Shown: positions 25,626 through 58,165 of the stretch, one piece after another
Layout: each line of letters opens with the position of its first letter
Position numbering within the stretch: position 1 is the stretch's first letter
Virus record (IMG/VR): IMGVR_UViG_3300027754_000037
Source: a virus
Taxonomy: Duplodnaviria > Caudoviricetes
DNA: 64,000 bases
Strand: one strand, 5' to 3'
Notes under the pieces: model-generated
Database searches by the model: none
Told to the model about the DNA's origin: nothing
What the model saw: the letters and a program-made list of their open reading frames with translations, nothing else
Translations under genes and position numbers: made by a program

Positions 25626-26162
25626 TTGGAAATATATCAAGAAAAAGAAATAAAATACGGATTTGTGATTCTGTGTCCAGATCATTCGATCAGCATGGTA
25701 AAAACCACCGTATTTTCCGTCCAATCAAAATACGAAAATGCTTCCTGCATTTGCGTTGTTGACAATCAAGCGACCAAGGAAGATGTCGCTTTAATTAAGG
25801 AAATTTGCCCTGTTTATAAAGGCGGTTCGACCGTAACCTCCTTAATCAATGTCGGCATGAGACACTCTCCTACTGAATGGGCATTTCTTGTATTTGCAGG
25901 AACAACCGTCAGAAGTAAAATGAACCAAAAATATTCATTTTTCATGAATAGCGAAAAAGATGTCGTATATCCAGTTGCAAACAACAAAAGTAATTTCATC
26001 GATGCTACCTTGAACGGACTCTTGATCAACAAGAAATTTTTCAAGGAAGTTGGAGATCTCCAAGACGAAGGCAGTTTGGAAGAAATCAAATGTGAATGGG
26101 CTTGCAGAGCTATGGCGCATGAATGCAAGTTCAAATCAATTGTTGGCGCAAAACTTTGTTAA
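25626..26162 (+). CDS. Divergent GT-A (family 2-like) fold protein
   Basis: GFVILCPD...ICVVDN...SLINVGMRHSPTEWAFLVFAG; the expected DxD is absent. Confidence 0.45.
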   Translation: MEIYQEKEIKYGFVILCPDHSISMVKTTVFSVQSKYENASCICVVDNQATKEDVALIKEICPVYKGGSTVTSLINVGMRHSPTEWAFLVFAGTTVRSKMNQKYSFFMNSEKDVVYPVANNKSNFIDATLNGLLINKKFFKEVGDLQDEGSLEEIKCEWACRAMAHECKFKSIVGAKLC

Positions 26163-26677
26163 ACATCTCCGTACATGAGACTCCATCTGTCATCGTGGCG
26201 ATGCAGACCTTCGTCAACTTGGGAAAGATACAAATAAAGTTCGTCCCATGAAGCAAACATGTATCGAGTAGGCACAAATCCAAAATACCATAATGGAATA
26301 TATTTGATGTGATTTTTGTTGGTAACCAAGAGAGTAGGCTTTTTGGCGTTATTGCTGTTGATGATTTCATGTACCGTGCCTACAGTTTGCACACCATAGG
26401 GAACATACGCAATTATGAAATCGCAACGGTCTATTATACCTAAATCTTTACGAACAAAACCTTTAGCTACTGCAACCATCTGTTCAATATCATCTTTTTT
26501 TTGAGCATTTCTGATTTTTTCATGAGCATTTTGTTTTAAATCTTTGAATGGATCAAACAAATTTATGTTGAATTTTTCAGTCAAAACCGCAGTCGGACAT
26601 CCACGCCACTTGTCTTCGGTTGCAAACTGTATGGGTCCACTAAGATAAGCTCGCTTGGATGATAGGAATCCTAACAT
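26159..26677 (-). CDS. Nucleoside 2-deoxyribosyltransferase/DNPH1-like protein
   Basis: AYLSGPI, LFDPF, DLGIIDRCDFIIAY, GTVHE with the catalytic Glu. Confidence 0.8.
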   Translation of the reverse strand: MLGFLSSKRAYLSGPIQFATEDKWRGCPTAVLTEKFNINLFDPFKDLKQNAHEKIRNAQKKDDIEQMVAVAKGFVRKDLGIIDRCDFIIAYVPYGVQTVGTVHEIINSNNAKKPTLLVTNKNHIKYIPLWYFGFVPTRYMFASWDELYLYLSQVDEGLHRHDDRWSLMYGDV

Positions 26678-26717
26678 TTATAATTTCCTGTAAACTCATT
26701 TAACAAGGGGAAACAAC

Positions 26718-27425
26718 ATGAATTCAAATGATCAGATTCTAAGCGAAATGAATGAACTTTTGCAACACGAACCAACGCAAAGACACAGCTATTTTCAGCT
26801 TAAATATTTTCTAATTGGCAAAGAGCCAACCATTCAGTCCAAAATGTGGCAATGTCTTCGAGAATTGAAAAATCGCAAAGACTCGCTGCAATCGATGGAT
26901 TTGGAAATCTCTGAAACAAATGATAAACTTTTATTGCTAGATATAAACATACAAAAGTTGGAACACAATATCAAAGAATTTTCGGCCCAGCCAGTCACGA
27001 CGATGAATGAGTTGTCGATGCAAGAATGGAAAATCAATATTCGACAACTTGAAAGGCAAAAAACCGCATACCTAGAATCCTTGAATCAAATTGAAGAAAG
27101 AAAAAAGTGGACCGCTGAAGAGTCAAGGTTCTTCATCGAGACATTTAAAAGCTTGATCAAAATCGAGGACTTGAAGCATTTTGACGACTTCGAGTCGCAA
27201 ATGAATTACTGGAATGAAAAGCTTACTCAGAAAATTAATTTGAAGATGCTGACCAGCGGTCATATCGATTCTGAGTTGATCGAAACTGTGGTTGCTCTGC
27301 CAGAAGAAACTCCCATTAAAAAACAAACTCTTCAAACACTTAATATGAAACAAGCTCAGATATTACAGCAGTTTAAAGAAATGGCGCAAAAAATAGACAA
27401 GAAAGAAAGCCGTGAGGAGAATTGA
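26718..27425 (+). CDS. Coiled-coil hypothetical protein
   Basis: RHSYFQLKYFLIG...MWQCLREL followed by long heptads. Confidence 0.7.
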   Translation: MNSNDQILSEMNELLQHEPTQRHSYFQLKYFLIGKEPTIQSKMWQCLRELKNRKDSLQSMDLEISETNDKLLLLDINIQKLEHNIKEFSAQPVTTMNELSMQEWKINIRQLERQKTAYLESLNQIEERKKWTAEESRFFIETFKSLIKIEDLKHFDDFESQMNYWNEKLTQKINLKMLTSGHIDSELIETVVALPEETPIKKQTLQTLNMKQAQILQQFKEMAQKIDKKESREEN

Positions 27426-28501
27426 TGGCTATTACGAGAATTTCATCGCAAGATGGTGGTTATACTGTTGGGAGTCTATCGGTTTTTCCAAATGCGATTG
27501 ACTCTCGATATCAGCTTTATGAGGCCAAAAATAACGCTGAAACCAAACTTGTTCAAACTCTGACATATTCCGCAAAATATATAGTAGTTGACAACAATGA
27601 CCTTTTCCCGTCAACAGGTATTCTGAGGGTGGGACCTCCTCCGGGGCAACCCGGAGCGGCGGAAATGATTTACTACGAAAGTAAGACAAATGGTGCTTTT
27701 AAAAATCTGATCAGAGCTTTTGCTGGTTCTAGACAGAATTATTGGCCTGTTGGCAGTTTTGTGACAAATAGCGTTTTTGCAGAGCACCATAATTCCTGTA
27801 AAGACGCCATCCTGAACATAGAACAGGATTTGGGGATAGAAGTCTTTCCAACTACAGGATCGCTGAATCAAATTCTCAAAGCTCAAGAAAACAAATTTTT
27901 GGCACCAAGGGCAGTCTTCCGTGCTCAACCCATCAAAGGTCCTCCCGGCACTAAAATACGCTTTCAAAACTTCAGTACAGGACCATTAGTCCGCAACCTC
28001 TGGGATTTTGGCGACGGCACGACATCTGTCGATAGATCGCCTGTGCACACCTATCAAAAAGAAGGAAACTACACAGTCAAATTAAATATCATCAGCACCC
28101 TTGGAGCTCAAGGCATTGCAGAGAAAGCTGGATACATAACAATCAACGAATCTGAAAGACAGCCGTTTTTTTATGTTTTGCCAACCACCGACACGATCAT
28201 ACCCGGATATTCTCTCAAATATGCAACCGAAACTCTTGGAGATCCTGATCTTGCCACAACATTTACATACATGGACCAAACCGATGGCAATATCGTTCAA
28301 CGATTCTGGGTATTCGACGGTGCTGGCAAACATAATGGCGAACAGGTAGAGGGCAATTCAATTACCGAATATGATCCGAATATTCACATGACGACCTATG
28401 TTTATGACAAACCGGGAGAATACAGGCCTTCTCTTCTGACTTTGTTCGAGAATCAAAAACTACAAAGAGCCTTCCTAACAGACAAAATCGTGGTGATATA
28501 A
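27422..28501 (+). CDS. PKD-domain virion/fibre protein (paralog 1)
   Basis: AEHHN..DAI..IE motif; PKD pattern PRAVF...FQNFSTG...WDFGDG...HTYQKEGNYTVKL. Confidence 0.8.
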   Translation: MMAITRISSQDGGYTVGSLSVFPNAIDSRYQLYEAKNNAETKLVQTLTYSAKYIVVDNNDLFPSTGILRVGPPPGQPGAAEMIYYESKTNGAFKNLIRAFAGSRQNYWPVGSFVTNSVFAEHHNSCKDAILNIEQDLGIEVFPTTGSLNQILKAQENKFLAPRAVFRAQPIKGPPGTKIRFQNFSTGPLVRNLWDFGDGTTSVDRSPVHTYQKEGNYTVKLNIISTLGAQGIAEKAGYITINESERQPFFYVLPTTDTIIPGYSLKYATETLGDPDLATTFTYMDQTDGNIVQRFWVFDGAGKHNGEQVEGNSITEYDPNIHMTTYVYDKPGEYRPSLLTLFENQKLQRAFLTDKIVVI

Positions 28502-30822
28502 TGGCAGATTTAAGTAATTTTCCTGCAATTCTTGACACCAATGTTGAACTCTATCATGTAAGTGATGGACTTCGTGTTGTGCTTGCCGAAGATTATAATC
28601 CCGGCGATACATCAATTACCGTGCTAGGCGACGAAGAAATGATGAGGCGGTTTACACCAACCGGCATCATCACGCTCACGGAACAATGCAGCGAACCAGA
28701 ACTCAGAGCAATCAGTTTTTCCTACACATCCAGAACACTAACCACATTTGATGGATTGATTCTTCTGGATGGTTTTACAGATGTAGGCAAACCAAAATCC
28801 ATCACAAATGTCACCCAAAATGTGATGGCCCAACATCACAACAGTCTCAAAGATGCACTAATAAATATCGAAGAATTTGCAGGGATAAAGGGCGAGGTTG
28901 GACCTCGTCCTCTTGAGGGAACGATGGAAGAACGCATCAACTATCTGAGGAGCATAGTTTTACAACCCAAGGCTTGGTTTTCCAGCAATAAACAAATCGG
29001 TTTGGCTCCTCTAACTGTCGAATTCACCAACAAGAGTTTTCGTTTGGGAACAGACGGCAATTCGCAAACCGTTAGCTATATTTGGGATTTTGAGTATGAT
29101 CCCAGCGTTACCCCAACAACAATCTGTAACGCCACTTCGGTTGTACCATCGACAATCAGCCATGTTCTGATAAGAGATTTGGATGGAGGTGCGATCACAA
29201 AAACCTATTATGACCCCGGAATTTTCAGCGTTAAACTCACCGTGACAAATAATTTTGGCTCTGATAGCGTTATTTTCGACGACTACATTCAAGCTCGTTT
29301 TCCTGCGCCACTTGATGCTTGCATTGAATTCACGCAGCGTGCGAATCAAGTTGTCATACTGGGCACAAATCCTACCGGTGGTCCCTATATTCAGACGAAC
29401 TCAACCACTCCAGTCATTAGAAGTCCTGTCAATAATATCATTGACATGTACATTAACCCCGGAGAAAACACTACAAACGCACCCGGATACACTTTTGCTG
29501 GCGAAGAATTAGATGGAGCTTCTCCTATTGATCCAATTATTCAATACACTTGGTCTTTATCAGATGATATTCCACACAGCAACGCAAGCACAGCAAGAGC
29601 GGTGTATAGCGTTGGTGGTTTTTATGATCTAATTTTGAGGTGCGACACTCAATTTGGTGCATATAAAATTACAAAATATCCCAAGGCTTTTGATATTGTA
29701 GAAAAATTAAATTTATGGCTATGGCTGTCTAATCCCTTGGACTCTTCTGATGTATCTGTATCTGAATTCGGTTTATTAAGCGAAACTTTCAAAACCGCTA
29801 CTGCCAACACCACAATTGCCAGAAATTATACATTTCTAGAAGACAATTCCCCATCTTATGTCGTGCCAAATGAAATTCAACAACAAAGAGAATTTAGAAA
29901 TAATGTAGGTTTTGCCCGCAATACCACCGCATCTTCTGGCAACAATGGTACAGGATATTTGTATTGGGCAACAGGCAGAAGTCCTTTGGACAGTAAATCG
30001 AGTGAAAAAATTCAATCGCTTACTTTTAACGGTTTTACACAATCTTATATTGCCGGTTTTTCAGATGTTTATAGACCTTGGAACTGGGTCGATCTGTATT
30101 CTAGCAGTAAGCTTTGGTTTATTTTGGGAGGTGTCACGACTCTTGATATCAATATTCCTCAAGACACATCTCCAACAAATCAAGTAAAATCTGTAGTTTC
30201 ACTTGGTACTGGAAATGTAGATTCAAGCGTCTCATTTGTACAAACTAATTACAAAAATGGCGCAGATAATTTGCTTAATAATGCAGTTTCATATCCTATA
30301 GGTGGAGGAGACACTCTTCAGGGTCACATGAGTGTTTACCGGTCATGTTGGTTTGATGATGCTGGATATATCCTCAGAAATGAAGGTGTCGGTTCCTTTT
30401 TTAGAATCAAAACTTTCTACAAGACTAGTGGAACATCAGCAGACTATGTGCAGGACATACGAAAATTGCCAGACATGAGCGGCGCAAGCCGTGTTGAGGG
30501 CAAACTTGTTCCACTCAGCTTGGGTGTTTATTTCTTCAGCAACGCTGGTGCTGTTAGTGCATACAGCCCAAGCTCGGGTGTTTGGGGTACGGGTGGTCCC
30601 GGCATCAATAGTCCAGCCTTCCGTGTGCTTCAAGATACAAGCGTGGTCGGCTACGACGATCCAGATCAAACTCTACTCTGCGCTTCGGATGGAGATAAAA
30701 TTGCATATCTCAGTTTTGATTATAGTCAAAAATCTTTTGTAAAGTTCAACGAAACCGACACTACTTTCACCAGCGTCACAGCAAGACCAATTGGAGATCA
30801 GTTTCACATGACGATTTTCTAA
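28501..30822 (+). CDS. PKD-domain virion/fibre protein (paralog 2)
   Basis: AQHHNSLKDALINIE motif; PKAWF...APLTVEFTNKS...WDFE...YYDPGIFSVKLTVTN. Confidence 0.8.
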   Translation: MADLSNFPAILDTNVELYHVSDGLRVVLAEDYNPGDTSITVLGDEEMMRRFTPTGIITLTEQCSEPELRAISFSYTSRTLTTFDGLILLDGFTDVGKPKSITNVTQNVMAQHHNSLKDALINIEEFAGIKGEVGPRPLEGTMEERINYLRSIVLQPKAWFSSNKQIGLAPLTVEFTNKSFRLGTDGNSQTVSYIWDFEYDPSVTPTTICNATSVVPSTISHVLIRDLDGGAITKTYYDPGIFSVKLTVTNNFGSDSVIFDDYIQARFPAPLDACIEFTQRANQVVILGTNPTGGPYIQTNSTTPVIRSPVNNIIDMYINPGENTTNAPGYTFAGEELDGASPIDPIIQYTWSLSDDIPHSNASTARAVYSVGGFYDLILRCDTQFGAYKITKYPKAFDIVEKLNLWLWLSNPLDSSDVSVSEFGLLSETFKTATANTTIARNYTFLEDNSPSYVVPNEIQQQREFRNNVGFARNTTASSGNNGTGYLYWATGRSPLDSKSSEKIQSLTFNGFTQSYIAGFSDVYRPWNWVDLYSSSKLWFILGGVTTLDINIPQDTSPTNQVKSVVSLGTGNVDSSVSFVQTNYKNGADNLLNNAVSYPIGGGDTLQGHMSVYRSCWFDDAGYILRNEGVGSFFRIKTFYKTSGTSADYVQDIRKLPDMSGASRVEGKLVPLSLGVYFFSNAGAVSAYSPSSGVWGTGGPGINSPAFRVLQDTSVVGYDDPDQTLLCASDGDKIAYLSFDYSQKSFVKFNETDTTFTSVTARPIGDQFHMTIF

Positions 30823-30865
30823 GTGTAATTCTACATACTTTTATTACAAAAAGGGATCATTTTAA

Positions 30866-33490
30866 GTGCCATATTTATTTCCACCAGCACCTGTCTACCC
30901 AAACGACTACGATAGTGATCAAACACTATTTGTAGTTTATAACACTTCGGAAACCGTCACCACAGCAGAGAATCAGCCTTGGTCTGATGAAATCTCCATC
31001 AAGCCTGTAGCTGCCGACAAAGATGAAATGTGGTCAGACAACGGATTTGCCAACATAGATGGTGAATTGTTTTACTATGGATCTGTTGAGTACGATGGCA
31101 ATAGCAAAATAAATAAATTCAAACAATGTTGCCGTAATATTGGTGGAACACATACCAAAAGAACCTTAGCGGGTGCTGAAGTTCGTGGTTTCGTAATCGC
31201 AGAACATCACAACCAGATTGTTGATGCCATTGTTAAAATCGAAAACTTCGTTGGATACAACTTCACTCCTGACACAGCTTCTTTGGACTGGAGAATTAGA
31301 AATCTTCAAAATCTTGAAGTAATTTTTGACGACTTTTCCTGCCCTGATGTTGTCTTTGATTTTTTTGTGATTGAAAACAACCCCACTACAGGCATTTTGG
31401 CCCAATATAACATTACAATCACAGGAATTTTCACAAGTTATCGGTTAGATTTTGGAGATGGAACATACACGACTACCTCTCAGAATGGCACACACAGGTA
31501 TGCTCCTAACGCCTCAATTGATCCTGCGCTGACCGTAGCAAACAACAAATGTACTCTTGTTCAAACTCCAATTGAAAGATTGAATGTAACTGAACCTACA
31601 GCACAAAAACCAACCACAGCTTTTGAAATCCCTATTCCTGCTTTGCCTACTATTCCTCAATTCACGGTGCCAACAATTACGGTGCCATCTTTGGTTCCGC
31701 AATTGCCTCCTATTGTGTTTCCGTGTTTGAATGTTGGGCCTATTGGGCCAATCAACATACCATCGGTAATTAGCGTAATTCCCGGCATCAACATACCCTC
31801 ATTGGTGTCAATCACACCTGTGAGCTTGCCGTCTAAGATTACCATAACTCCTGTAACTATTCCAGATAAAATTACTTTTAATCAACCTAAAATTCCTGAC
31901 ACAATCACGATCAGTCCAGCACCAACTATTCCAAACATCAAAATTGATCCTGTTCCTACAATTCCCAATATTAAATTTGACACATTTCCAACATTTCCGA
32001 CTACAATTGGTTTTGGTCCGTTCCCGACTTTCCCAACTAAATTCACATTTGGTAGCTTCCCGACTTTCCCAACTAAGTTTACATTTGGTCCGTTCCCGAC
32101 TTATCCAACTCAATTTAGTTTCGGTGATTTTCCAAGCTTTCCAACAAATATCGGATTCGATCCACTTTTCATTCCAACAAGCATTGGTTTTGATAATGTT
32201 CCGAACTTTCCGACTTCTATTCCTATTTCTTTTCCTAAAATACCAACTATTCCTGTTGCTCCAATCAATGTGCCAGAGATTAAGGTTGATTTTGGACCTG
32301 CACCAAAATTTGATCCAATCGAAATCACCAGCAAAATTACAATACCAACTATAGAATTCGGTCCAGCGCCAACATTCCCGGCATCGATTCCCTTCGTAAA
32401 TCCTCCGTGTTTGCCTGCCGTGATCGTTATCACGGCTGCTGGTATTCCTACTATTCCAGACACTATTACAATTACAGGACCTAATATTCCAAATAGTATC
32501 AAATTTGAAAATCCACCGGCATTTCCGAAGATCAAATTTGACAATCCTCCGGTATTTCCGAAAATTCAATTCGATAATGCTCCAAAAATTCCAGACAAGA
32601 TCACATTCGATAATGCTCCAAAAATTCCTACTACTATCGGCTTCGGACCCGCTCCTAAGTTTCCAGATACAATTAACTTCGGGCCGAATCCTTTACCTAG
32701 TCAAATTACCTTTGGTCCCAACCCTCTGCCTACTACAATCGGTTTTGGCCCAGCGCCAAAACTTGGTCCTGTAGAATTTGGTCCACACAACTTACCAGCA
32801 CAGATCAACTTTGGAACCGCTCCAACCATTTCGGTTTCATGGGGTACGCCTCCTACTGTATCATGTGTCGTATCGGTGCAATGTCCGTCCAACACTCCTT
32901 TCTACAAGCCTGCAAGTTTGTTTGAGGAGGAGAAAGCATATGCTCCTCTTGAACCTCTTGAAGTTCAAATGTCAGATTTGGGAATCCCTTCAGAAATATT
33001 GGTCAAGGTTCCAGAAATACCGGACATCAAAATTCTGCACGATATGCCTGCTGTCATTCGTATAGAAATTCCAAATATTCCAGATATCAGAATTATCGGT
33101 CCTGCGACTCCAATTCCAAGTATTATCAGGATTGACGCAGAAGGACTGCCCTTGGCCATAGAGCTAATTGCAATCAATCTTCCTTCAGCAATCAAGCTGG
33201 ACACTACAGGATTGCCATCTACGATTAAATTGGATATCCCAGATCAATTTCCGATGATTAAATTGGACACATCTGGGATTCCAGACAAAATTCAAGTTGT
33301 TGGAATTCCATCGGTAATCGAATTGATTGGCGCACCAAGTGAAATCAAGTTGGTCCTGCCCGACAAGCCAGAAATTGAACTGGTTTACAGGGGAGCTCCG
33401 ATTGATGTGAAAATCAATCTTGATATCAGCAAACTTACTGGCGAAAACTCCAACGCCCAATGCGTGGCTATCGTGCCCTGCTCAAATTAA
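30866..33490 (+). CDS. Fibre-like protein (paralog 3) with PKD remnant and a long Pro-rich repeat domain
   Basis: AEHHNQIVDAIVKIE; LDFGDG; then about 580 aa of Pro/Ile/Phe/Thr-rich repeats; GTG start. Confidence 0.8.
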   Translation: MPYLFPPAPVYPNDYDSDQTLFVVYNTSETVTTAENQPWSDEISIKPVAADKDEMWSDNGFANIDGELFYYGSVEYDGNSKINKFKQCCRNIGGTHTKRTLAGAEVRGFVIAEHHNQIVDAIVKIENFVGYNFTPDTASLDWRIRNLQNLEVIFDDFSCPDVVFDFFVIENNPTTGILAQYNITITGIFTSYRLDFGDGTYTTTSQNGTHRYAPNASIDPALTVANNKCTLVQTPIERLNVTEPTAQKPTTAFEIPIPALPTIPQFTVPTITVPSLVPQLPPIVFPCLNVGPIGPINIPSVISVIPGINIPSLVSITPVSLPSKITITPVTIPDKITFNQPKIPDTITISPAPTIPNIKIDPVPTIPNIKFDTFPTFPTTIGFGPFPTFPTKFTFGSFPTFPTKFTFGPFPTYPTQFSFGDFPSFPTNIGFDPLFIPTSIGFDNVPNFPTSIPISFPKIPTIPVAPINVPEIKVDFGPAPKFDPIEITSKITIPTIEFGPAPTFPASIPFVNPPCLPAVIVITAAGIPTIPDTITITGPNIPNSIKFENPPAFPKIKFDNPPVFPKIQFDNAPKIPDKITFDNAPKIPTTIGFGPAPKFPDTINFGPNPLPSQITFGPNPLPTTIGFGPAPKLGPVEFGPHNLPAQINFGTAPTISVSWGTPPTVSCVVSVQCPSNTPFYKPASLFEEEKAYAPLEPLEVQMSDLGIPSEILVKVPEIPDIKILHDMPAVIRIEIPNIPDIRIIGPATPIPSIIRIDAEGLPLAIELIAINLPSAIKLDTTGLPSTIKLDIPDQFPMIKLDTSGIPDKIQVVGIPSVIELIGAPSEIKLVLPDKPEIELVYRGAPIDVKINLDISKLTGENSNAQCVAIVPCSN
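31980..32830 (+). repeat. Tandem 33-36 nt coding repeats (FGPFPTFPTKFT, FDNAPKIPDKIT, FGPNPLPSQIT)
   Basis: Visible near-identical units such as TTCCCGACTTTCCCAACTAA at 36-nt spacing. Confidence 0.85.
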
Positions 33491-33591: not shown

Positions 33592-34455
33592 ATGGAACCA
33601 ATTATCAAGAAAACGAATGATGGCAACCAATATTATTTGACTCCCCAGAATCTGTGGGTCAGAAATTTCTGTTTGGAGCAAGTGCCATTTGTTGACATCA
33701 ACAAGACAATCAGACCAGAAGATCATTTTACTTTTCTTGAAAATGAAGTGAGAAACGCACAGAACAAATATGTTTGGATTGATACAGAAGAATTCAGTAT
33801 GACGAATGTCGTCATCGTGTCGGACGGATATGAATTTGAAAAAAAACAACAACTGTTGGCCAAATTGCCAAAAGATGTAACGATCATAGCTGTTAACGGA
33901 GCTTTGTCGAAATGGAATCTGCCGAATAGAATTCCATCTTGGTACATAGCCAACAATCCTTACGAAGAATGTATGAGATTTTTTCCCAGAAGGCTTAGAA
34001 TTCTGCCTAGGGTTGTCGCATCAATTAGAACTAATCACAAATTCATGACCCTTTATCGTGGACAAAAATTCAGATACTATCCAGTCAATGAAAAACAATA
34101 TGCGAGTATTGGCCAAAAAGATGTTGCTTGGCAGGTTGATGATTATAGAAATCCAATTTGTGCAGCAATACATATCGCTGTCAAATTTGGAGCATTAAAT
34201 ATTCTTTTGTTTTGTTGCGATAACAGCTTTGAACTTGAAAGGCCGGGTGCGGAAAAGCTCGAAAACGGTTTGTATCAGTATCCTCAGCAAAACATAGTAA
34301 ATGGTTTAATTGACGGTCAATTTTTCTGGTTGAAAAGCCACCCTTATTTTGATTATGAGATCGGCAATTGTTCAAGTGGTAAAGATTATGAGTTTGCTGA
34401 ATATATATCTGAGGAAAAAATGTTTTCCTTTTTTCAACAAGGCGGTGAAAAATGA
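33592..34455 (+). CDS. Maf/DUF115 (MptE-like) family protein, divergent
   Basis: VVIVSDG, TIIAVNGAL, PSWYIANNP, AAIHIAVKFGALNILLFCCDNSF. Confidence 0.6.
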   Translation: MEPIIKKTNDGNQYYLTPQNLWVRNFCLEQVPFVDINKTIRPEDHFTFLENEVRNAQNKYVWIDTEEFSMTNVVIVSDGYEFEKKQQLLAKLPKDVTIIAVNGALSKWNLPNRIPSWYIANNPYEECMRFFPRRLRILPRVVASIRTNHKFMTLYRGQKFRYYPVNEKQYASIGQKDVAWQVDDYRNPICAAIHIAVKFGALNILLFCCDNSFELERPGAEKLENGLYQYPQQNIVNGLIDGQFFWLKSHPYFDYEIGNCSSGKDYEFAEYISEEKMFSFFQQGGEK

Positions 34456-34757
34456 ACACAAGGAATGACACGGACCCATTTGGTCCTTTTAATTTTAGTG
34501 ATTTCAAAAAATGGATGTCTCACCAAAACGATGCTCGCAAGAACAGCATGATTGGTGTAAAAGTCGAATCCAAAATACCCATCAAAAAACTTCTTTCAAG
34601 AATTGAAGCACAAGAAGGGGATATCACAGAAGTTGCCAAAGACTTCAAAAAACATGGTGGTACTATAACAGAAGAAAATGGGTATTACATGTATGTCTCT
34701 GTCGATAGTGGAAACTTCATGATCCATAAAATGCACATCAAGCGTGCAGACGACTAG
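34452..34757 (+). CDS. Hypothetical protein
   Basis: ATGA overlap with the upstream gene. Confidence 0.7.
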   Translation: MNTRNDTDPFGPFNFSDFKKWMSHQNDARKNSMIGVKVESKIPIKKLLSRIEAQEGDITEVAKDFKKHGGTITEENGYYMYVSVDSGNFMIHKMHIKRADD

Positions 34758-35119
34758 CCCTTCTGAACCATAATTATTCTGGTTGGAAGATTCGCAACAT
34801 TAACGACTGGCGTAGGAAAATTGCTTGCCACAAACTCAGGCTGTTCGCTCATGGGCAGATTGGAATAACCTCTGTTCCTGAGCGATGCCTTAAGCAAATC
34901 ATAGGTATCAGCAGCTTCCAGCCATAATTCCCAAAGCATCCTGTTATCGTAAACAATTTGTTTGATTTCACTCGTCCAGTTAACTGGCAGATTCAAAATA
35001 TCCAGATTTTCAACACGACTAGCCAAAATGGGCCTGCCGAATAACTTTGCAAAAATACGAATTCCAGCCTTGTCTCTTCGTCCCAAATATAGGTAAAGAT
35101 TCACATTCGTAGTAGCCAC
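34754..35119 (-). CDS. Hypothetical protein
   Basis: 121-aa ORF whose GTG start overlaps the upstream TAG. Confidence 0.65.
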   Translation of the reverse strand: MATTNVNLYLYLGRRDKAGIRIFAKLFGRPILASRVENLDILNLPVNWTSEIKQIVYDNRMLWELWLEAADTYDLLKASLRNRGYSNLPMSEQPEFVASNFPTPVVNVANLPTRIIMVQKG

Positions 35120-35280
35120 TATTGTTTCTCACTCTTATAATTTTCTGGGTTCTGATTGAAAAGTTCTTCAAGAACTATTTCCATTACTAAGCGAGTAAAA
35201 GAATCGTCAGAACCAAACTGCGATGCAAAAGCTTGCAAAGCCTCTACTCCTGAGTTTGCGTCATCTTGGTGTTTTTTCAT
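35119..35280 (-). CDS. Small hypothetical protein (53 aa)
   Basis: TAG/GTG coupling to the next gene; TACATA element 16 nt upstream on the minus strand. Confidence 0.45.
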   Translation of the reverse strand: MKKHQDDANSGVEALQAFASQFGSDDSFTRLVMEIVLEELFNQNPENYKSEKQ

Positions 35281-35902
35281 GATTCCACTTCCTGAATATG
35301 TAAAAATCAAAGACAATTATTGCATTGTTTACTTTGGAAATTGCAAAGAATATATCGTGCAACTTCGTTTGCTGCGACCAATCATGGAAAAGACCTTTGC
35401 AGGATTGCAAGTTTATCTAGCCTGCAAAGATGAATATATGTACTTGCTGAACAATGAGTCAAAAACTCTCTCGGCATCGTCTCTCAAGACACAGAAACAA
35501 AAATTCGCTTATATTCGTGAAATTTATACGGAAATCAACAAACATCCAGTTGAAGAACTGATGTTGGAATCTGAAATAACTTTTCAACCAATTTGCAATA
35601 ACATAATCCATCCTGAACTCATTAAGGGGTCGTGCCTGTTGTTAACTACAGCTAATCTTCCGACAAGAAGTCTGAATGCAAATCAAATCACACACGCTTT
35701 GGATTACATCAGAAAACAAGGTTGTCAGGCGCACTTCAATAAAAAAATAGATGATTTTGATTGGGTTGTTGGTGTCGAGAACGAAAATCTTTACGAGGCT
35801 GCGTCTCAGGGCAAAAAAGTTACTCTTATTCCCACAGGATTTGGTGAAAATCTTTTTAAGAAGATGTTTCCTGCTTCTGGAATTCTTCGCATTCCTGCCT
35901 GA
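35279..35902 (+). CDS. Divergent GT-B (family 9 heptosyltransferase-like) protein
   Basis: IVQLRLLRPIMEKTF..., FDWVVGVENENLYEAASQGKKVTLI resembles GT9 vigvDSGplHlAaalgkp. Start reassigned from 35156. Confidence 0.5.
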   Translation: MIPLPEYVKIKDNYCIVYFGNCKEYIVQLRLLRPIMEKTFAGLQVYLACKDEYMYLLNNESKTLSASSLKTQKQKFAYIREIYTEINKHPVEELMLESEITFQPICNNIIHPELIKGSCLLLTTANLPTRSLNANQITHALDYIRKQGCQAHFNKKIDDFDWVVGVENENLYEAASQGKKVTLIPTGFGENLFKKMFPASGILRIPA

Positions 35903-35962: not shown

Positions 35963-36541
35963 ATGAGCGTATTTACAGTAAAGTTAAACAACAGCACTCA
36001 AGGTGGCTTGGATATGAATCCCCAATCTTTGGGCCAGTTTACTACAAGCGTCCAGCGCACTATTTTCGTGACTGGACCAAAAAGAATTTATCGCAAACTT
36101 TTCGATGGCGAAACATTCACGGACTGCAATTACTGGAAGAAATTTGCGGTGCCTAATCTTCCCGCCGATCAAGCTTTCATCGAAGTAACTACCGATGATG
36201 GTTCCATTTACAGCGAAGTGGATGAAGAAAATAACTATCCTAAGGTCTATTCTTTGACCGTGGACGATGGATCGGATTTTGTCGATAATGTATGCGATAT
36301 TGTTGGAGATACAGGTTCCACAGCAAATTTTGTACAGATCAACTCCACCAATTCTTCTGGCGGCGATGTGAGAGTAAAACTCAACGGCATGACCGGAGCG
36401 ATTTTTGACCTCAAAGCTGGTGATACTCAAGTTTTCAACTATGGCGACCTTGCCGTAACCAAGTTGGCATTCGACAACTCCAGCGGAACCGATGCCGAAA
36501 TTCAAGTCATCGTATCCGTCAAGAGTTCCTGCCTTAGCTAA
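35963..36541 (+). CDS. Probable abundant virion structural protein
   Basis: Own CATAAATA element (35907-35914), GGAG RBS, beta-rich sequence and its own terminator. Confidence 0.6.
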   Translation: MSVFTVKLNNSTQGGLDMNPQSLGQFTTSVQRTIFVTGPKRIYRKLFDGETFTDCNYWKKFAVPNLPADQAFIEVTTDDGSIYSEVDEENNYPKVYSLTVDDGSDFVDNVCDIVGDTGSTANFVQINSTNSSGGDVRVKLNGMTGAIFDLKAGDTQVFNYGDLAVTKLAFDNSSGTDAEIQVIVSVKSSCLS

Positions 36542-36559
36542 ATTAAAAATCAATTAAAG

Positions 36560-36588
36560 AAACCCAGCCTTTATTGGCTGGGTTTTTT
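36560..36588 (+). terminator. Intrinsic terminator
   Basis: AAACCCAGCC-TTTATT-GGCTGGGTTT followed by a T-tract. Confidence 0.85.
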
Positions 36589-36951: not shown

Positions 36952-37956
36952 ATGTTAGGTTTCGATTGCGGGACTTACAACTTGGTTTGTTGTTCCAGAG
37001 ACAAAGAAAGAAATTTTTCCTACAAGAGGGAAGTCAATGCCTTCTTGGAGCTTCCTTTGGAAAACCGATTTGTTTTCAACATGATGAAAACCGCTGGTGT
37101 TCCTTTGATTGAAAGGGAAAAAGTAGCTTATGCCCTAGGTGAGGCGGCGGTTAATATGACCTACACCATGAGCGCACTCGAACTTAAGCGCCCTATGATT
37201 CACGGCTGTGTAAATCCCAAGGAAAAAGACGCTTTCCAGATCATGAGCATCATGATGCATAGTTTGATCGACAATGTCAAAAAAGACGGTGAAGTCCTAT
37301 ATTATTGCGTTCCATCCAACGCCATCAATCAAGACACAGACGCAGACTATCACCAAAGAATCCTCGATGCCATTTTCAAGGCGTATAGGAACGAGACTGG
37401 TTACAAGGTTGATGCGCATCCAATCAATGAAGCTCTTGCTTTGGTCTATGCAGAATTGGCTCAAAAAGCATTTACTGGAATCGCCATGTCATTTGGTGGT
37501 GGCATGATCAATGTCTGCTACGCCATGTATGGCAATCCTGCCTTTAAGTTTGCAATCGTGAATTCCGGCGACTGGATTGATCGTCAAGCTGCCAAGGCTA
37601 CTGGCGAAAGTATCAGCTTTATCAATAAAGAAAAAACAAAGATTGATCTTACAAAGCAACCTACAAACCTTGTTGAAAGAGCAATCCACACGCAATACAG
37701 GCTTATGATTGAACACACCGTGACTGGGCTCAAGCAAGGATTCTCAGATGTTACCAAGACCGTCAGAACTGACGCTCCAGTTGATGTCGTAATTGCAGGA
37801 GGCACAAGCTCTCCTAACGGTTTCGGAGAACTGTTTAGGGAGACAATTTCTCAGGCAGACCTACCAATCAAAATTGGCACAATCATTAAACCATCAGACC
37901 CTCTGTACTCTGTAAGCCGTGGGTGCCTTTTGGCAGCAGAAGCTGCTGTTGGATAA
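36952..37956 (+). CDS. Actin-like ATPase (volactin/MreB/MamK superfamily)
   Basis: Phosphate-1 GFDCGTYN, connect-1 PINEALA, phosphate-2 SFGGGMIN, adenosine IAGGTS, connect-2 SRGCLLAA; GGAG RBS. Confidence 0.9.
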   Translation: MLGFDCGTYNLVCCSRDKERNFSYKREVNAFLELPLENRFVFNMMKTAGVPLIEREKVAYALGEAAVNMTYTMSALELKRPMIHGCVNPKEKDAFQIMSIMMHSLIDNVKKDGEVLYYCVPSNAINQDTDADYHQRILDAIFKAYRNETGYKVDAHPINEALALVYAELAQKAFTGIAMSFGGGMINVCYAMYGNPAFKFAIVNSGDWIDRQAAKATGESISFINKEKTKIDLTKQPTNLVERAIHTQYRLMIEHTVTGLKQGFSDVTKTVRTDAPVDVVIAGGTSSPNGFGELFRETISQADLPIKIGTIIKPSDPLYSVSRGCLLAAEAAVG

Positions 37957-52265: not shown

Positions 52266-52294
52266 ATAACACTCCTTCGATGGTTTCCTACATT

Positions 52295-55057: not shown

Positions 55058-55342
<285 letters not shown>

Positions 55343-55363
55343 TTTTCGTCATTATTTTCATCA

Positions 55364-55392
55364 AAGCCCAGCTTTTCGCTGGGCTTATTTTT
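55364..55392 (+). terminator. Intrinsic terminator
   Basis: AAGCCCAGC-TTTTC-GCTGGGCTT followed by ATTTTTT. Confidence 0.8.
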
Positions 55393-55489
55393 TCGATATT
55401 CAAAAATCAACTCATATATATTTTAGTATTATATCAAGATAAATATTATGACAACATCGAACAATACTCTTAACATGACAAGGAGGTTC

Positions 55490-56206: not shown

Positions 56207-56209
56207 ACT

Positions 56210-56240
56210 AAACCCGCCCTAAAAAGGCGGGTTTTTATTT
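56210..56240. terminator. Terminator between convergent genes
   Basis: AAACCCGCC-CTAAAAA-GGCGGGTTT followed by a T-rich tract. Confidence 0.8.
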
Positions 56241-56468
56241 TTTCTTGTCGCAATTACAGTCTTTTTTCATATAGCGAATCTTGTTTTTGCGGTTTTTTGC
56301 TGTAATTGGGAGTTCATTGTCCGAATATGTGGGAAATGCTCCCGGTGCAATCATTCTCTTGGCAACTCCATCGCCACCATCGCCCTCGTCCTCCACACTA
56401 GAAGGATCGTTGGCGCTCCCGCCAAACCACTCTTTTTTGTTCAGATAATCAAGGAAAGATTGCTTCAT
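56235..56468 (-). CDS. Small hypothetical protein (possible head-packaged protein)
   Basis: N-terminus MKQSFLDYLNKKE; CTATATA 6 nt upstream. Confidence 0.7.
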   Translation of the reverse strand: MKQSFLDYLNKKEWFGGSANDPSSVEDEGDGGDGVAKRMIAPGAFPTYSDNELPITAKNRKNKIRYMKKDCNCDKKK

Positions 56469-56509
56469 AATGAATATATAGTTTGCCGACATATTTTACA
56501 AGGAGGGTC

Positions 56510-57580
56510 ATGAAAAACGATTTTTCAAAACTGATGCTGATTGGAATCTTATCCCTTGCCTTAGTCTTAATATTTAATCTAAAAACAAAGTCTTACCCTG
56601 AGCCTAAAGTTGCTCAGGTTCCAAAAAAAATAGTTCCTGAAGCAGGACCGCAAACATATCCAGAACCAAAATCTCCACAGATTTCCAACCCTATTCCAAA
56701 ACACCTCTCCTATCCTCAAACCGTCGAACAACTTAAAAATTGGAATAAAGAAGCTCCAGAACTCACAGAAGTTGGCATATACGGCCAATCTAAAAAGGGC
56801 ACAGACCTGTTTTATATTCGAGTCAATAATAAATTAGATAAAAATACCAAACCAGTCATTCTTATTACAGCTTGCATTCACGGAAATGAATCATGGAGCG
56901 CAGGTATCACTATGGGATACTTGGGCAATTTACTCAAGAATTATTCTACCGATCCCAAAATAAAAGCACTCATAAATTCTCGTGATATTTATTTTATTCC
57001 AGTTGTTTCTCCCGACAGTTATACCCAGCAGAGATTTGTTGATGGAGTTGATCCCAACCGTGACTTCCCCACTCCTAAAAACAAAACACACCAAAGCACT
57101 CCCAGCGTTGCTGCACTCCGTGAATTCTACTGGAAAATTAAACCACACGCAGTTTTGTCAGGACACACATACGGCAGGCTTTTTCTCATTCCTTACGGCG
57201 ATCAATATGGGAAAAATTCCAACCAATCTGATTATGATGCGATTGTTGGCAAAATGGCTAAAATGGCCAATTACAAAATGATTCATTGCGTTGAACTTTA
57301 CAAATCACCAATCGACGGTACTGAAGTTGACTGGTTCTATCGAAACGGCAGCTTTGCTGCTGTTATCGAATACGGCACCCACCAACACAAACCCAGTCTG
57401 CAAGAAATTAAAGACGAACTTAAGTGCACCCAAGATGCAATTACATATTTCATAGAAAAATCACCAGATATCAAAATTACTACGGTAGATAATGAAATTG
57501 ACTTTAGCCAGAACACAGGAATTGCAAAAGAATATCACCGCAACTCCGATGGTGCTCTAAAATCAATTAATCCTCACTAA
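56510..57580 (+). CDS. Membrane-anchored/secreted M14 zinc carboxypeptidase
   Basis: AGGAGG RBS, TM anchor; ACIHGNE (HxxE), VDPNRDF, SGHTYG, VIEYG. Confidence 0.9.
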   Translation: MKNDFSKLMLIGILSLALVLIFNLKTKSYPEPKVAQVPKKIVPEAGPQTYPEPKSPQISNPIPKHLSYPQTVEQLKNWNKEAPELTEVGIYGQSKKGTDLFYIRVNNKLDKNTKPVILITACIHGNESWSAGITMGYLGNLLKNYSTDPKIKALINSRDIYFIPVVSPDSYTQQRFVDGVDPNRDFPTPKNKTHQSTPSVAALREFYWKIKPHAVLSGHTYGRLFLIPYGDQYGKNSNQSDYDAIVGKMAKMANYKMIHCVELYKSPIDGTEVDWFYRNGSFAAVIEYGTHQHKPSLQEIKDELKCTQDAITYFIEKSPDIKITTVDNEIDFSQNTGIAKEYHRNSDGALKSINPH

Positions 57581-58165
57581 ATTCTGAGTCATAAGATAAA
57601 GATAACGCTCATAGGAATCCCTCAAAACATTCATCTCCTTGGGCGTTATCGCATCTAAATTGAATGTTCTCTGAAAAGGAATCAATAAATTTGGATCAAA
57701 ATTGATACTTGTTTTTAGTCCTAAATATTTCTCAAGCAAACCAATACCACGACTACTTGCCAAATCATCATATGTCAATAACAATGACCCCGATGATTTT
57801 TTTGACATTTCATAAAGTCTGCGTAACCTAAAACTGTAATACCTGCAAGCAAATGATGGATTTCTTTTTTCGTTGCCAATCATATAGCCCATCACAGCTT
57901 CCGGTTCTCTCAACACAAATATTAACTTGCAGTAATCATAAGCCGATTTGGTACTAATTTGATGATTCCTTACAACCTCGTCCAAAAAAATTGCTGATTT
58001 ATTGCCTAATTTATGATGATTTTTTGTTAGATAATAGAAATTCAAGGGGCTTTCATATCTGTTTTTGTTTCTAAAACCCTGAATCCTAATATGATCATTC
58101 AACGACTCATATAAGGCTGTCGATCCTGAATACTCATGACTGCAAATTAAAACTATTTTTTTCAT
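57563..58165 (-). CDS. Sulfotransferase-fold protein, divergent
   Basis: IVLICSHEYSGSTALYESLNDH, IFVLREP, LLLTYDDL, LEKYLGL. Confidence 0.6.
   Translation of the reverse strand: MKKIVLICSHEYSGSTALYESLNDHIRIQGFRNKNRYESPLNFYYLTKNHHKLGNKSAIFLDEVVRNHQISTKSAYDYCKLIFVLREPEAVMGYMIGNEKRNPSFACRYYSFRLRRLYEMSKKSSGSLLLTYDDLASSRGIGLLEKYLGLKTSINFDPNLLIPFQRTFNLDAITPKEMNVLRDSYERYLYLMTQNLVRIN

What the first reader, a model, noticed from the sequence alone, without database searches (positions are those of the whole stretch)
25626..58165. A dispersed toolkit of divergent glycan-modifying folds associated with virion genes
GT2-like (25626), Maf-like (33592), GT9-like (35279), sulfotransferase-like (57563) and HPAT-like (left edge) proteins all sit in late-gene context. 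Each appears to have eroded canonical motifs. Together they suggest either a phage virion-glycosylation/sulfation pathway or systematic co-option of dead glyco-enzymes as carbohydrate-binding virion parts. All folds were called by eye.
Basis: inference. Interest (0 to 1): 0.7.

Follow-up and report, generated by a model that had tools for sequence, protein, structure and literature searches.

The report
Sugar-transferase-like genes wired into phage fibre genes
A large uncultured lake phage and dozens of its relatives keep five small proteins shaped like sugar- or sulfate-adding enzymes at fixed places beside tail-fibre and portal genes, most likely to decorate the virus particle, but no activity has been tested.

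Summary
All five fold calls made by eye hold up, with unequal strength.

- **GT2-like (25626-26162):** a confident GT-A fold that lacks the DxD metal site in every orthologue.
- **HPAT-like (1-564; full gene 286 aa):** a confident GT-A fold whose nearest predicted shapes include HPAT clusters.
- **Maf-like (33592-34455):** matches only Pfam DUF115/MptE, always below the curated cut-off, in 15 of 26 orthologues.
- **GT9-like (35279-35902) and sulfotransferase-like (57563-58165):** rest on Atlas models plus motif-level matches.

Synteny is the strongest result. In about 40 viral contigs, the Maf-like gene directly follows a long Pro-rich fibre-like gene. The GT2-like gene keeps its slot after the baseplate genes, and the sulfotransferase-like gene usually sits head-to-head with the portal gene. 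The HPAT-like gene instead lies beside RNA-repair-like genes, so "late context" is only partly true.

"Eroded" fits two of the five: the GT2-like protein and the sulfotransferase-like PAPS loop. The other three keep conservative or variant motifs.

My best reading is fibre or virion glycosylation using host-supplied donors (about 0.4). The five genes do not look like one pathway. Other first-reader notes on this genome raise the same idea; none on other DNA was returned.

The parts
1..564 (-). HPAT-like GT-A protein, N-terminal 188 aa; the full gene is 286 aa (L015:11004-11864, P0040)
   Evidence: The AF2 model has pLDDT 95.5. It is a GT-A fold: Z 14.9 to glycogenin, and Atlas TM 0.74-0.76 to PF23452 HPAT clusters. 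The family has 211 representative clusters and no Pfam hit. The DxD site reads DPH.
17886..24667 (+). Baseplate genes: gp25-like, gp6-like wedge, a 1433-aa P2-I/gp7-like protein, and a 160-aa protein with a tail-collar-fibre N-terminal domain
   Evidence: Pfam PF04965, PF09684 and PF12571; PHROG baseplate wedge.
24687..25571 (+). 294-aa protein of unknown family directly upstream of the GT2-like gene
   Evidence: This arrangement is conserved in L002, L004, L005 and L028. In L028 the GT2-like gene starts 3 nt after it.
25626..26162 (+). GT2-like, DxD-less GT-A protein (178 aa, TTG start)
   Evidence: AF2 pLDDT 92.3. Foldseek and VIA match GT2 enzymes. A91-G92-T93 replaces DxD, and G92 is invariant in 19 orthologues. 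dN/dS is 0.26.
26159..26677 (-). Nucleoside 2-deoxyribosyltransferase-like protein on the opposite strand; present in only some relatives
   Evidence: PF05014 at E 1.1e-5, below its cut-off. Present in L004, L005, L052 and L065; absent in L002 and L028.
27422..33490 (+). Three fibre-like genes with PKD domains (359, 773 and 874 aa); the third has a Pro-rich repeat region
   Evidence: PKD hits. The order is conserved in 41 loci. Proline makes up 15.1% overall and up to 22.7% in a 300-aa stretch.
33592..34455 (+). Maf/DUF115 (MptE-like) domain protein, 287 aa
   Evidence: PF01973 at E 2.6e-6, below its cut-off. It is the only family hit in 15 of 26 orthologues. The gene always lies directly downstream of the third fibre-like gene.
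34452..35119 (.). Two small conserved genes of unknown family between the Maf-like and mini-GT9 genes: 101 aa on the + strand and 121 aa on the - strand
   Evidence: Syntenic in most loci; no Pfam or NCBIfam hit.
35279..35902 (+). Mini GT9-like protein, 207 aa
   Evidence: The Atlas model has TM 0.72 to viral GT9 clusters. VGVENENLYEAA aligns with ISVDSAAFHFAG of a 339-aa phage GT9. The N-terminal half alone survives in several relatives.
35963..36541 (+). 192-aa conserved protein, the last gene of the + strand run
   Evidence: Syntenic in nearly all loci and duplicated in L004.
36557..36588 (.). Strong two-way intrinsic terminator that ends the structural gene run
   Evidence: 13-pair stem with a T-run.
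57563..58165 (-). Sulfotransferase-like protein, 200 aa
   Evidence: The Atlas model has TM 0.78-0.80 to Sulfotransfer_3 clusters. The PSB loop reads SHEYSGST, and the 3'-PB motif REPE is conserved. Weak profile matches to CurM ST fall at both motifs. dN/dS is 0.15.
58237..62013 (+). T4-type portal gene with intein insertions, divergent from the sulfotransferase-like gene
   Evidence: PF07230 at E 2.9e-66, with intein and LAGLIDADG domains. The head-to-head pairing recurs in L014, L071-L074 and the P0029 contig.

Best explanation
The five genes are real, conserved, stand-alone proteins with transferase folds. They belong to the near-core gene set of a clade of large to huge T4-like aquatic phages.

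The most likely job of the three in the fibre module (the GT2-like GT-A, the Maf/DUF115-like protein and the mini-GT9) is to modify newly made fibre or baseplate proteins in the cytoplasm late in infection, using activated donors supplied by the host. The clearest pairing is the Maf-like protein with the Pro/Thr/Ser-rich fibre-like protein encoded just upstream. It parallels the way Maf enzymes put ulosonic acids on flagellin Ser/Thr.

The sulfotransferase-like and HPAT-like proteins probably act on other virion or cell-surface acceptors. They are not steps of one linear pathway with the other three.

Shown here: the folds or family resemblance, the motif states, purifying selection and the conserved gene order. 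Inferred: catalysis, donor, acceptor and timing of expression.
For: - **Folds.** Supported (GT2-like; HPAT-like; Maf-like; GT9-like); and 21 and 40 (sulfotransferase-like).
- **Gene order.** The order PKD359, PKD773, Pro-rich fibre, Maf-like, p101, p121(-), mini-GT9, p192 recurs in about 40 viral contigs at 38-62% identity, on contigs up to 572 kb.
- **Coupling to the fibre gene.** The gene just upstream of the Maf-like gene is 640-1880 aa and Pro-rich in 22 of 24 loci. The gap to the Maf-like gene is mostly 0-50 nt, so the two are probably co-expressed.
- **GT2-like slot.** An orthologue at 46% identity sits in the same place after the gp25, gp6 and gp7-like genes, 3 nt after the p296 gene. 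The GT2-like gene is present in 3 of 3 near-complete relatives.
- **Sulfotransferase-like position.** It lies head-to-head with the portal gene in seven lineages.
- **Selection.** dN/dS is 0.26 for the GT2-like gene and 0.15 for the sulfotransferase-like gene, similar to neighbouring genes at 0.12-0.21.
- **Conserved polar residues.** Invariant or nearly invariant in the Maf-like family: N121, N122, D183, D184, R186, N187, D210 and R217. In the sulfotransferase-like family: H10, S13, S15, H51, K52, R86, R113, R115 and R116. Long mini-GT9 forms keep E/D24, a basic residue in P-x-[RK]-S-L, and the Glu of GVE.
- **Precedents.** Glycans sit on the capsid and tail-tube proteins of mycobacteriophages (Freeman et al. 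2023, as described in PMC12619734). Maf enzymes glycosylate flagellin Ser/Thr with Neu5Ac or Kdo (bioRxiv 10.1101/2020.06.03.131540).
Against: - No activity, glycan, virion proteome or expression data exist for this phage or its relatives.
- The GT2-like family has no DxD, and the Asp after strand 2 is not conserved.
- The sulfotransferase-like PSB loop lacks the catalytic Lys/Arg.
- The mini-GT9 is reduced to its N-terminal half in G002, G009, G011, G012 and L067, and is absent in G007 and G008.
- The Maf-like protein has only the central DUF115 domain, and PF01973 also covers archaeal pterin pyrophosphokinases.
- None of the five has its own T4-type late promoter box.
- Relatives do not consistently encode donor-synthesis genes.
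- The HPAT-like gene is not among virion genes.
Confidence: 0.4

Rival explanations
1. The enzymes remodel the host envelope. They would alter host LPS, capsule or another surface glycan during infection, for example to stop further phages from infecting or to stop progeny from sticking to debris. The virion itself would not be modified.
For: GT9 enzymes are LPS-core heptosyltransferases, and GT2 enzymes and sulfotransferases commonly act on surface glycans (established knowledge). Large T4-like cyanophages carry up to 13 glycosyltransferases that their authors read as cell-wall modification genes (PMC12801897). The donors they would need (ADP-heptose, CMP-Kdo, UDP-sugars, PAPS) are host metabolites, which fits the lack of phage donor genes. 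There is a sigma-70-like match at 35113-35141 upstream of the mini-GT9 gene (a consensus match only).
Against: Accessory host-modifying genes in T4-like phages usually lie in variable regions. These genes hold fixed slots inside the fibre operon and beside the portal gene across relatives at 38-62% identity. None of the five has a signal peptide or membrane segment (read directly from the sequences). The mini-GT9 is too short to be a normal LPS heptosyltransferase.
Confidence: 0.2
2. At least the GT2-like protein and the mini-GT9 are pseudoenzymes. They would have lost catalysis and now serve as fibre or baseplate assembly factors, or as sugar- or nucleotide-binding virion parts.
For: DxD is absent in all 19 GT2-like orthologues, with Gly invariant at its centre, yet dN/dS is 0.26. 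The gene is embedded in the baseplate operon. The donor-binding C-terminal half of the mini-GT9 is missing in five lineages while the N-terminal half is kept, and three of those five short forms also lack the acidic residue at position 24. Both genes are missing together in G007 and G008, though this is one lineage and so one event.
Against: Metal-independent GT-A enzymes exist, such as BoGT6a, whose title appears among the matches. The GT2-like family keeps invariant D112, N130 and K170 and nearly invariant K65, which could serve in catalysis. Long mini-GT9 forms keep conservative equivalents of the positions I could align with a canonical phage GT9. No virion proteome places either protein in the particle.
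Confidence: 0.2
3. Some of the proteins modify DNA or nucleotides, glycosylating modified bases in phage DNA as the T4 glucosyltransferases do.
For: Phage glycosyltransferases that hypermodify DNA are diverse (Pyle et al. 2024, cited in PMC12619734). A nucleoside 2-deoxyribosyltransferase-like gene lies next to the GT2-like gene.
Against: The NDT-like neighbour is on the other strand, scores below its Pfam cut-off and is absent in L002 and L028. DNA-modification genes in T4-like phages normally sit with replication and nucleotide-metabolism genes and not in fibre operons (established knowledge of T4). Nothing here links the genes to a hydroxymethylase.
Confidence: 0.07

Closest known systems
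Mycobacteriophage virion glycosylation (Freeman et al. 2023, Cell Host Microbe; as described in PMC12619734)
   Same: Phage-encoded glycosyltransferase genes are placed with structural genes, and the proposed acceptors are virion proteins.
   Different: In the mycobacteriophages, glycans were shown by mass spectrometry on capsid and tail-tube C-termini, and the enzymes are canonical. Here nothing is shown biochemically, and the candidates are minimal, divergent proteins next to fibre and portal genes of T4-like huge phages.
Maf (motility-associated factor) flagellin glycosyltransferases, Pfam PF01973/DUF115 (PDB 5mu5; bioRxiv 10.1101/2020.06.03.131540)
   Same: Both have the central DUF115 domain. 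The gene sits next to the gene for a long, surface-exposed, Ser/Thr-rich filament protein. Action in the cytoplasm before assembly is plausible in both cases.
   Different: The phage protein is 287 aa and has only the central domain. It scores below the Pfam cut-off and gave no sequence match to 5mu5. The usual GNGPS-type motif reads SDG. The donor and the catalytic residues are untested.
GT2 inverting GT-A glycosyltransferases (SpsA 1qg8, WrtF 9om*, Leptospira 6p61)
   Same: Same GT-A fold over the whole 178 aa (Z 14-17), and the N-x-G...W-x-F-(L/V) sequence leading into strand 4.
   Different: There is no Pfam or PDB sequence match. The DxD is replaced by A/S-G-T/S, and the ED-type C-terminal motif by K-x-x-W-A.
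GT9 heptosyltransferases (Pfam PF01075; WaaC/WaaF type)
   Same: Predicted shape (TM 0.72 over 198 residues), and motif-level alignment with a canonical 339-aa phage GT9 on a related contig (L004).
   Different: The protein is 207 aa, against about 320-350 for the family. DS-x-x-H-x-A reads EN-x-x-Y-x-A. Some relatives keep only the first 100 aa or so.
Bacterial and viral PAPS-dependent sulfotransferases (Pfam Sulfotransfer_3/_1; CurM ST 4gbm)
   Same: Predicted shape (TM 0.78-0.80). There is an S-G-S-T loop after strand 1 and an R-x-P motif after strand 4, in the places of the 5'-PSB and 3'-PB motifs.
   Different: The Lys/Arg of the PSB loop is Tyr, and an invariant His lies two residues earlier. 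The window protein has no significant Pfam or PDB sequence match.
HPAT hydroxyproline O-arabinosyltransferases (GT95, Pfam PF23452) and retaining GT8/GT6 GT-A enzymes (glycogenin, LgtC, BoGT6a)
   Same: GT-A fold over the whole length. The shape is as close to HPAT clusters (TM 0.74-0.76) as to any named family. Several of the nearest solved structures glycosylate proteins.
   Different: None of 42 family members has a PF23452 hit. The DxD site reads DPH here and x-P-D in most of the family. A prolyl-hydroxylase-type gene is found in only 1 of 5 large relatives, and the gene is not next to the Pro-rich fibre gene.

Membership tests
GT2 (Pfam PF00535, GT-A fold) | GT-A Rossmann-like fold | tested here: met
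   AF2 pLDDT 92.3; Foldseek E 1.8e-8; VIA Z 17.2, rmsd 3.1, 168 aligned.
GT2 (Pfam PF00535, GT-A fold) | Significant match to the family HMM | tested here: not met
   No Pfam family at E up to 1. The profile of 19 orthologues finds no GT2 in the PDB. The only support is Atlas feature similarity of 0.96.
GT2 (Pfam PF00535, GT-A fold) | DxD metal and diphosphate-binding motif after strand 4 | tested here: not met
   A91-G92-T93 follows strand 85-90. G92 is invariant, and 17 of 19 orthologues have no acidic residue there.
Maf / DUF115 (Pfam PF01973) | Match to PF01973 over the curated cut-off | tested here: not met
   27.7 bits against a cut-off of 34.6. All orthologue hits are also below the cut-off.
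Maf / DUF115 (Pfam PF01973) | Reproducible, specific homology to the domain | tested here: met
   E 2.6e-6 covering model positions 20-168 of 171. It is the only family hit in 15 of 26 orthologues, with a best E of 6.5e-7.
Maf / DUF115 (Pfam PF01973) | Multi-domain Maf architecture with flanking substrate-binding domains | tested here: not met
   The protein is 287 aa, with only about 65 aa before and 70 aa after the domain.
Maf / DUF115 (Pfam PF01973) | Catalytic acidic residues equivalent to E324/D415 of M. magneticum Maf | tested here: inconclusive
   D183 and D184 are invariant and D210 is nearly invariant.
GT9 heptosyltransferase (Pfam PF01075) | HMM match and two full Rossmann domains (about 320-350 aa) | tested here: not met
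   No Pfam or NCBIfam hit. The protein is 207 aa, and the profile finds no GT9 in the PDB.
GT9 heptosyltransferase (Pfam PF01075) | GT-B-like shape resembling GT9 | tested here: inconclusive
   The Atlas's own model (pTM 0.78) has TM 0.72 to viral GT9 clusters. I did not fold it myself.
GT9 heptosyltransferase (Pfam PF01075) | Conserved N-domain acid, basic residue and D-S-x-x-H motif | tested here: inconclusive
   All 17 long forms keep E/D24 and the Glu of G-V-E, and 14 of 17 keep R/K in P-x-[RK]-S-L. Equivalence to the residues of the solved enzymes rests on one alignment with a phage GT9.
PAPS-dependent sulfotransferase (Pfam Sulfotransfer_1/_3) | Sulfotransferase fold | tested here: inconclusive
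   The Atlas's own model (pTM 0.80) has TM 0.78-0.80 to Sulfotransfer_3 clusters. Profile matches to CurM ST and 5x2b have E of only 0.5-0.6. Two of 15 orthologues hit PF00685 weakly.
PAPS-dependent sulfotransferase (Pfam Sulfotransfer_1/_3) | 5'-PSB loop with catalytic Lys/Arg (x-[KR]-S/T-G-S/T-T) | tested here: not met
   The loop reads H10-E-Y-S13-G-S15-T. The Lys/Arg position is Tyr, His, Gly or Cys in all 15 orthologues.
PAPS-dependent sulfotransferase (Pfam Sulfotransfer_1/_3) | 3'-PB motif Arg | tested here: met
   R86 and P88 are nearly invariant in V-R-E-P-E, which aligns with V-R-H-P of CurM ST.
HPAT (GT95, Pfam PF23452) | Match to the family HMM | tested here: not met
   None of 42 family members hits PF23452 at E up to 0.1.
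HPAT (GT95, Pfam PF23452) | Shape resembling HPAT domains | tested here: met
   TM 0.74-0.76 over 258-270 residues to four PF23452 clusters. Scores are equally high to PF02709 and PF11397 clusters.
HPAT (GT95, Pfam PF23452) | A hydroxyproline-forming partner enzyme is available | tested here: not met
   PF13640 is found in 1 of 5 large relatives, and in neither of the two near-complete relatives that carry the HPAT-like gene. Other oxygenase families were not searched.
Phage virion glycosylation system (mycobacteriophage type) | Glycosyltransferase genes embedded among structural genes | tested here: met
Phage virion glycosylation system (mycobacteriophage type) | Glycans attached to virion proteins | not testable with these tools
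   This needs virion mass spectrometry, and no cultured relative was found.

The most novel reading that the evidence does not exclude
A clade of huge aquatic phages runs a phage counterpart of flagellin glycosylation. A minimal Maf-domain enzyme, translationally coupled to a Pro/Thr-rich tail-fibre gene, would decorate the fibre with host-derived ulosonic acids such as Kdo. Metal-independent mini-glycosyltransferases would extend the glycan, and a portal-linked sulfotransferase with a new PAPS loop would sulfate a virion component. The result would be negatively charged, mucin-like fibres.
Probability: 0.15. Interest if true: 0.75.

Novelty: new variant of a known kind. Interest (0 to 1): 0.5.

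Why it matters
Virion glycosylation has been demonstrated in very few tailed phages. If these genes act on fibres, a whole clade of huge freshwater phages would carry built-in machinery that changes how their receptor-binding fibres look to hosts and to the environment. That would affect host-range prediction and fibre structure models.

The genes are of interest whatever they do. They define several unannotated families:
- a GT-A family without DxD;
- a mini-GT9 of about 200 aa;
- a sulfotransferase-like family without the catalytic loop lysine;
- an HPAT-shaped family of more than 200 clusters with no Pfam model.

Their fixed gene neighbourhoods give clear candidate substrates for experiments.

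Tried and rejected
- **Sequence libraries.** PHROGs gave nothing for any of the five proteins. NCBIfam gave nothing useful.
- **PDB profile searches.** The GT2-like, Maf-like, HPAT-like and mini-GT9 alignments found no related solved structure.
- **Phage DNA and protein searches.** Megablast of 24 kb against phage records found no match. tblastn of the HPAT-like protein against phage records found none. The Maf-like protein hit only one uncultured 595-kb phage record, which carries no annotation.
- **HPAT-like homologue searches.** The search for homologous proteins with longer lengths found none, and the first viral scan found none. The exhaustive search and a two-sequence alignment then found the family.
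- **Whole genome.** It is not held, so other glyco-genes that first readers noted elsewhere in this genome could not be checked.
- **Complex prediction.** p294 with the GT2-like protein gave no verdict (score 0.00, below the mark). This is neither for nor against binding.
- **RNA runs.** No RNA holder was listed.
- **Capsid-targeting leader.** The GT2-like N-terminus (MEIYQEKE) loosely recalls MKTYQEFIAE. It lacks the hydrophobic-x-Glu cleavage context and differs from the MKTFEEF-type start seen in this window at 62264-62653(-), so I rejected this idea.
- **T4-type late promoter box.** None was found within 120 nt upstream of any of the five genes.

Full report
**What the window is.** Earlier notes on this genome call it an uncultured T4-like lake phage of about 239 kb. 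The contig behind the window is 239,391 bases long. Pfam and PHROGs show a long + strand structural gene run:
- an OB-fold baseplate hub protein at 15661;
- gp25 at 17886 and a gp6-like wedge protein at 18318;
- a 1433-aa P2-I/gp7-like protein at 19887;
- a protein with a tail-collar-fibre N-terminal domain at 24185;
- three PKD-bearing fibre-like proteins at 27422, 28501 and 30866.

The only strong terminator in 24-37 kb lies at 36557-36588, after the 192-aa gene. The T4-type portal gene, which contains inteins, is at 58237-62013.

**GT2-like, 25626-26162.** Pfam, PHROGs and NCBIfam find nothing. Twenty-two orthologues exist, none with a Pfam domain. An AF2 model built from 19 of them is confident, at pLDDT 92.3. 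It matches GT-A glycosyltransferases over its whole length. Foldseek gives E 1.8e-8 and TM 0.70 to 6p61. VIA gives Z 17.2 (rmsd 3.1, 168 aligned) to WrtF, followed by BcsA, ppGalNAcT2, SpsA and TarS.

In GT-A enzymes the DxD motif follows strand 4. Here strand 4 is residues 85-90 (WAFLVF), and A91-G92-T93 follows it. G92 is invariant, and 17 of 19 orthologues have no acidic residue there. The Asp after strand 2 (D47) is not conserved either. The fold call and the "eroded motif" call are therefore both right.

Loss of activity is not proven, for two reasons. Metal-independent GT-A enzymes exist. The family also keeps invariant D112, N130 and K170 and nearly invariant K65.

**HPAT-like, 1-564(-).** The full 286-aa gene was recovered from the source contig. 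An exhaustive search found 211 representative clusters, all stand-alone proteins of 250-300 aa. None of the 42 sampled members has any Pfam hit.

The AF2 model has pLDDT 95.5 and is a GT-A fold. VIA gives Z 14.9 (rmsd 3.5, 216 aligned) to glycogenin, then LgtC, a Skp1 galactosyltransferase, LARGE1, UGGT and GT6 enzymes. In the Atlas shape search, four clusters that carry PF23452 HPAT score TM 0.74-0.76. PF02709 and PF11397 clusters score equally high.

The DxD site (residues 95-97) reads DPH in the window protein. In the family it reads x-P/S-D, with Asp at position 97 in 31 of 42 members and His in 8. This is a variant motif and not an eroded one.

**Maf-like, 33592-34455.** PF01973 matches at E 2.6e-6, covering model positions 20-168 of 171, but below the curated cut-off. 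The same single family is hit by 15 of 26 orthologues (best E 6.5e-7) and by two orthologues in six-frame searches. The homology to the DUF115 domain is therefore real but distant.

The protein has only this central domain. The family also includes archaeal MptE pyrophosphokinases, so "Maf" describes a resemblance. Twenty-three positions are invariant across 26 orthologues, among them N121, N122, D183, D184, R186 and N187. D210 and R217 are nearly invariant.

**GT9-like, 35279-35902.** No HMM library hits it. The Atlas holds this exact sequence, and its model (pTM 0.78) aligns 198 residues to a viral GT9 cluster at TM 0.72. A related contig carries a canonical 339-aa GT9. VGVENENLYEAA of the mini form aligns with its ISVDSAAFHFAG.

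Across 22 orthologues, the 17 long forms (about 200 aa) keep three features: an acidic residue at position 24, a mostly basic residue in P-x-[RK]-S-L, and the Glu of G-V-E. Five lineages keep only the first 102-112 aa, and three of those five have also lost the acid at position 24. The gene is absent in G007, G008 and L060. This pattern fits a miniaturised enzyme that decays or changes role in some lineages.

**Sulfotransferase-like, 57563-58165(-).** The Atlas holds the exact sequence. Its model (pTM 0.80) scores TM 0.78-0.80 to Sulfotransfer_3 clusters. A profile of 15 orthologues gives only weak PDB matches (E 0.5-0.6), but they are to sulfotransferases. They fall on the two PAPS motifs: IVLICSHEYSGS against IIFILSSPRSGS, and FIYVVREPEAV against YIYLVRHPYSV, of CurM ST.

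The loop Lys/Arg is Tyr in most members, so that canonical residue is missing throughout the family. H10, S13, S15, H51, K52, R113, R115 and R116 are invariant, and R86 and R108 are nearly so.

**Conservation of position.** This is the strongest result.
- A profile scan found 43 viral loci with the Maf-like gene, on contigs up to 572 kb.
- The order PKD359, PKD773, Pro-rich fibre, Maf-like, p101, p121(-), mini-GT9, p192, volactin is kept almost everywhere, at 38-62% identity.
- In 22 of 24 loci examined, the gene just upstream of the Maf-like gene is 640-1880 aa long and Pro-rich (11-18% overall). The gap to the Maf-like gene is mostly 0-50 nt.
- A GT2-like orthologue at 46% identity lies in the same slot after gp25, gp6 and a 1546-aa protein, 3 nt after the p296 gene.
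- The sulfotransferase-like gene is head-to-head with the portal gene in L014, L071-L074 and the P0029 contig.
- The HPAT-like gene keeps its place beside the SprT-like, HAD and CCA-like genes, just outside the start of the structural run.

Among 14 larger records, the GT2-like family is present in 9 (3 of 3 near-complete ones), the sulfotransferase-like family in 12 and the HPAT-like family in 7. The patterns differ between families. G009 lacks the sulfotransferase-like gene, G010 lacks the HPAT-like gene, and G007 and G008 lack both the GT2-like gene and the mini-GT9. In G007 and G008 the sulfotransferase-like and HPAT-like genes lie 1.3 kb apart.

dN/dS against a 93% relative is 0.26 for the GT2-like gene and 0.15 for the sulfotransferase-like gene, similar to neighbouring genes.

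**What this does and does not show.** The genes are functional, old in this clade, and tied by position to fibre, baseplate and portal genes. This favours a role in building or decorating the particle over a freely exchangeable host-modifying role.

It does not show catalysis, donor, acceptor or timing of expression. None of the five has a T4-type late box nearby. Large relatives do not consistently carry donor-synthesis or prolyl-hydroxylase genes: APS kinase in 0 of 5, CTP_transf_3 in 1 of 5 and PF13640 in 1 of 5. Any chemistry would therefore run on host metabolites. A hydroxyproline acceptor for the HPAT-like protein has no support.

First-reader notes report more glyco-genes elsewhere in this genome, including KdsB, a second DUF115 protein, TPR-glycosyltransferases and further sulfotransferases. 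I could not check them because the genome is not held.

**Comparison with what is known.** Virion glycosylation by phage-encoded glycosyltransferases is established for mycobacteriophages (Freeman et al. 2023, as described in PMC12619734). Large T4-like cyanophages are known to carry many glycosyltransferases, which are read as cell-wall or DNA modifiers (PMC12801897). Maf enzymes glycosylate flagellin with Neu5Ac or Kdo, and the Maf domain is PF01973, with a GT-A variant fold (bioRxiv 10.1101/2020.06.03.131540).

The new elements here are the particular minimal, divergent families and their hard-wired positions, above all the pairing of the Pro-rich fibre gene with the Maf-like gene. I rate this a new variant of a known kind, of moderate interest, with the mechanism still inferred.

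Noticed in passing
L004:13425-18490: In one relative (60.8-kb viral contig), three fatty-acid beta-oxidation-like genes are inserted between the duplicated p192 genes and the volactin gene: a thiolase, a 652-aa FadB-like protein and a 639-aa acyl-CoA-dehydrogenase-like protein. A canonical 339-aa GT9 gene follows at 18570-19589.
   Followed up: no
L004:12094-13368: The 192-aa gene that ends the fibre gene run is tandemly duplicated in this relative.
   Followed up: no
window 36952-37956: A strong Pfam Volactin hit (PF25216, E 6e-64). The gene is syntenic with the fibre module in nearly all relatives, at 58-89% identity, making it the best-conserved gene in the neighbourhood.
   Followed up: partly
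window 58237-62013: The T4-type portal gene is interrupted by intein and homing-endonuclease domains (PF14890, PF14528, PF05204). A relative at 46% identity also has an intein in its portal gene.
   Followed up: partly
G012:C1:11005-11832 (111-kb viral contig): The HPAT-like orthologue there has an in-frame TAA stop, so it may be a pseudogene or a sequencing error.
   Followed up: no
window 62264-62653 (-): The ORF contains an internal MKTFEEFVVQKE that resembles the T4 capsid-targeting sequence. The real start may be this internal Met.
   Followed up: no
L079 (G008:C1:43000-51000): In the G007/G008 lineage the sulfotransferase-like and HPAT-like genes are 1.3 kb apart on opposite strands, with three or four small ORFs between them. 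There the sulfotransferase-like gene is not next to the portal gene.
   Followed up: partly
window 27422-33490: The three PKD-bearing fibre-like proteins share an N-terminal motif: AEHHNSCKDAILNIEQDLG, AQHHNSLKDALINIEEFAG and AEHHNQIVDAIVKIENFVG. This suggests paralogues with a common attachment domain.
   Followed up: no
window 35113-35141: A sigma-70-like match (TAGCCA, 17 nt spacer, TATAAT) lies upstream of the mini-GT9 gene, which follows a minus-strand gene and so needs its own promoter. This is only a consensus match.
   Followed up: no
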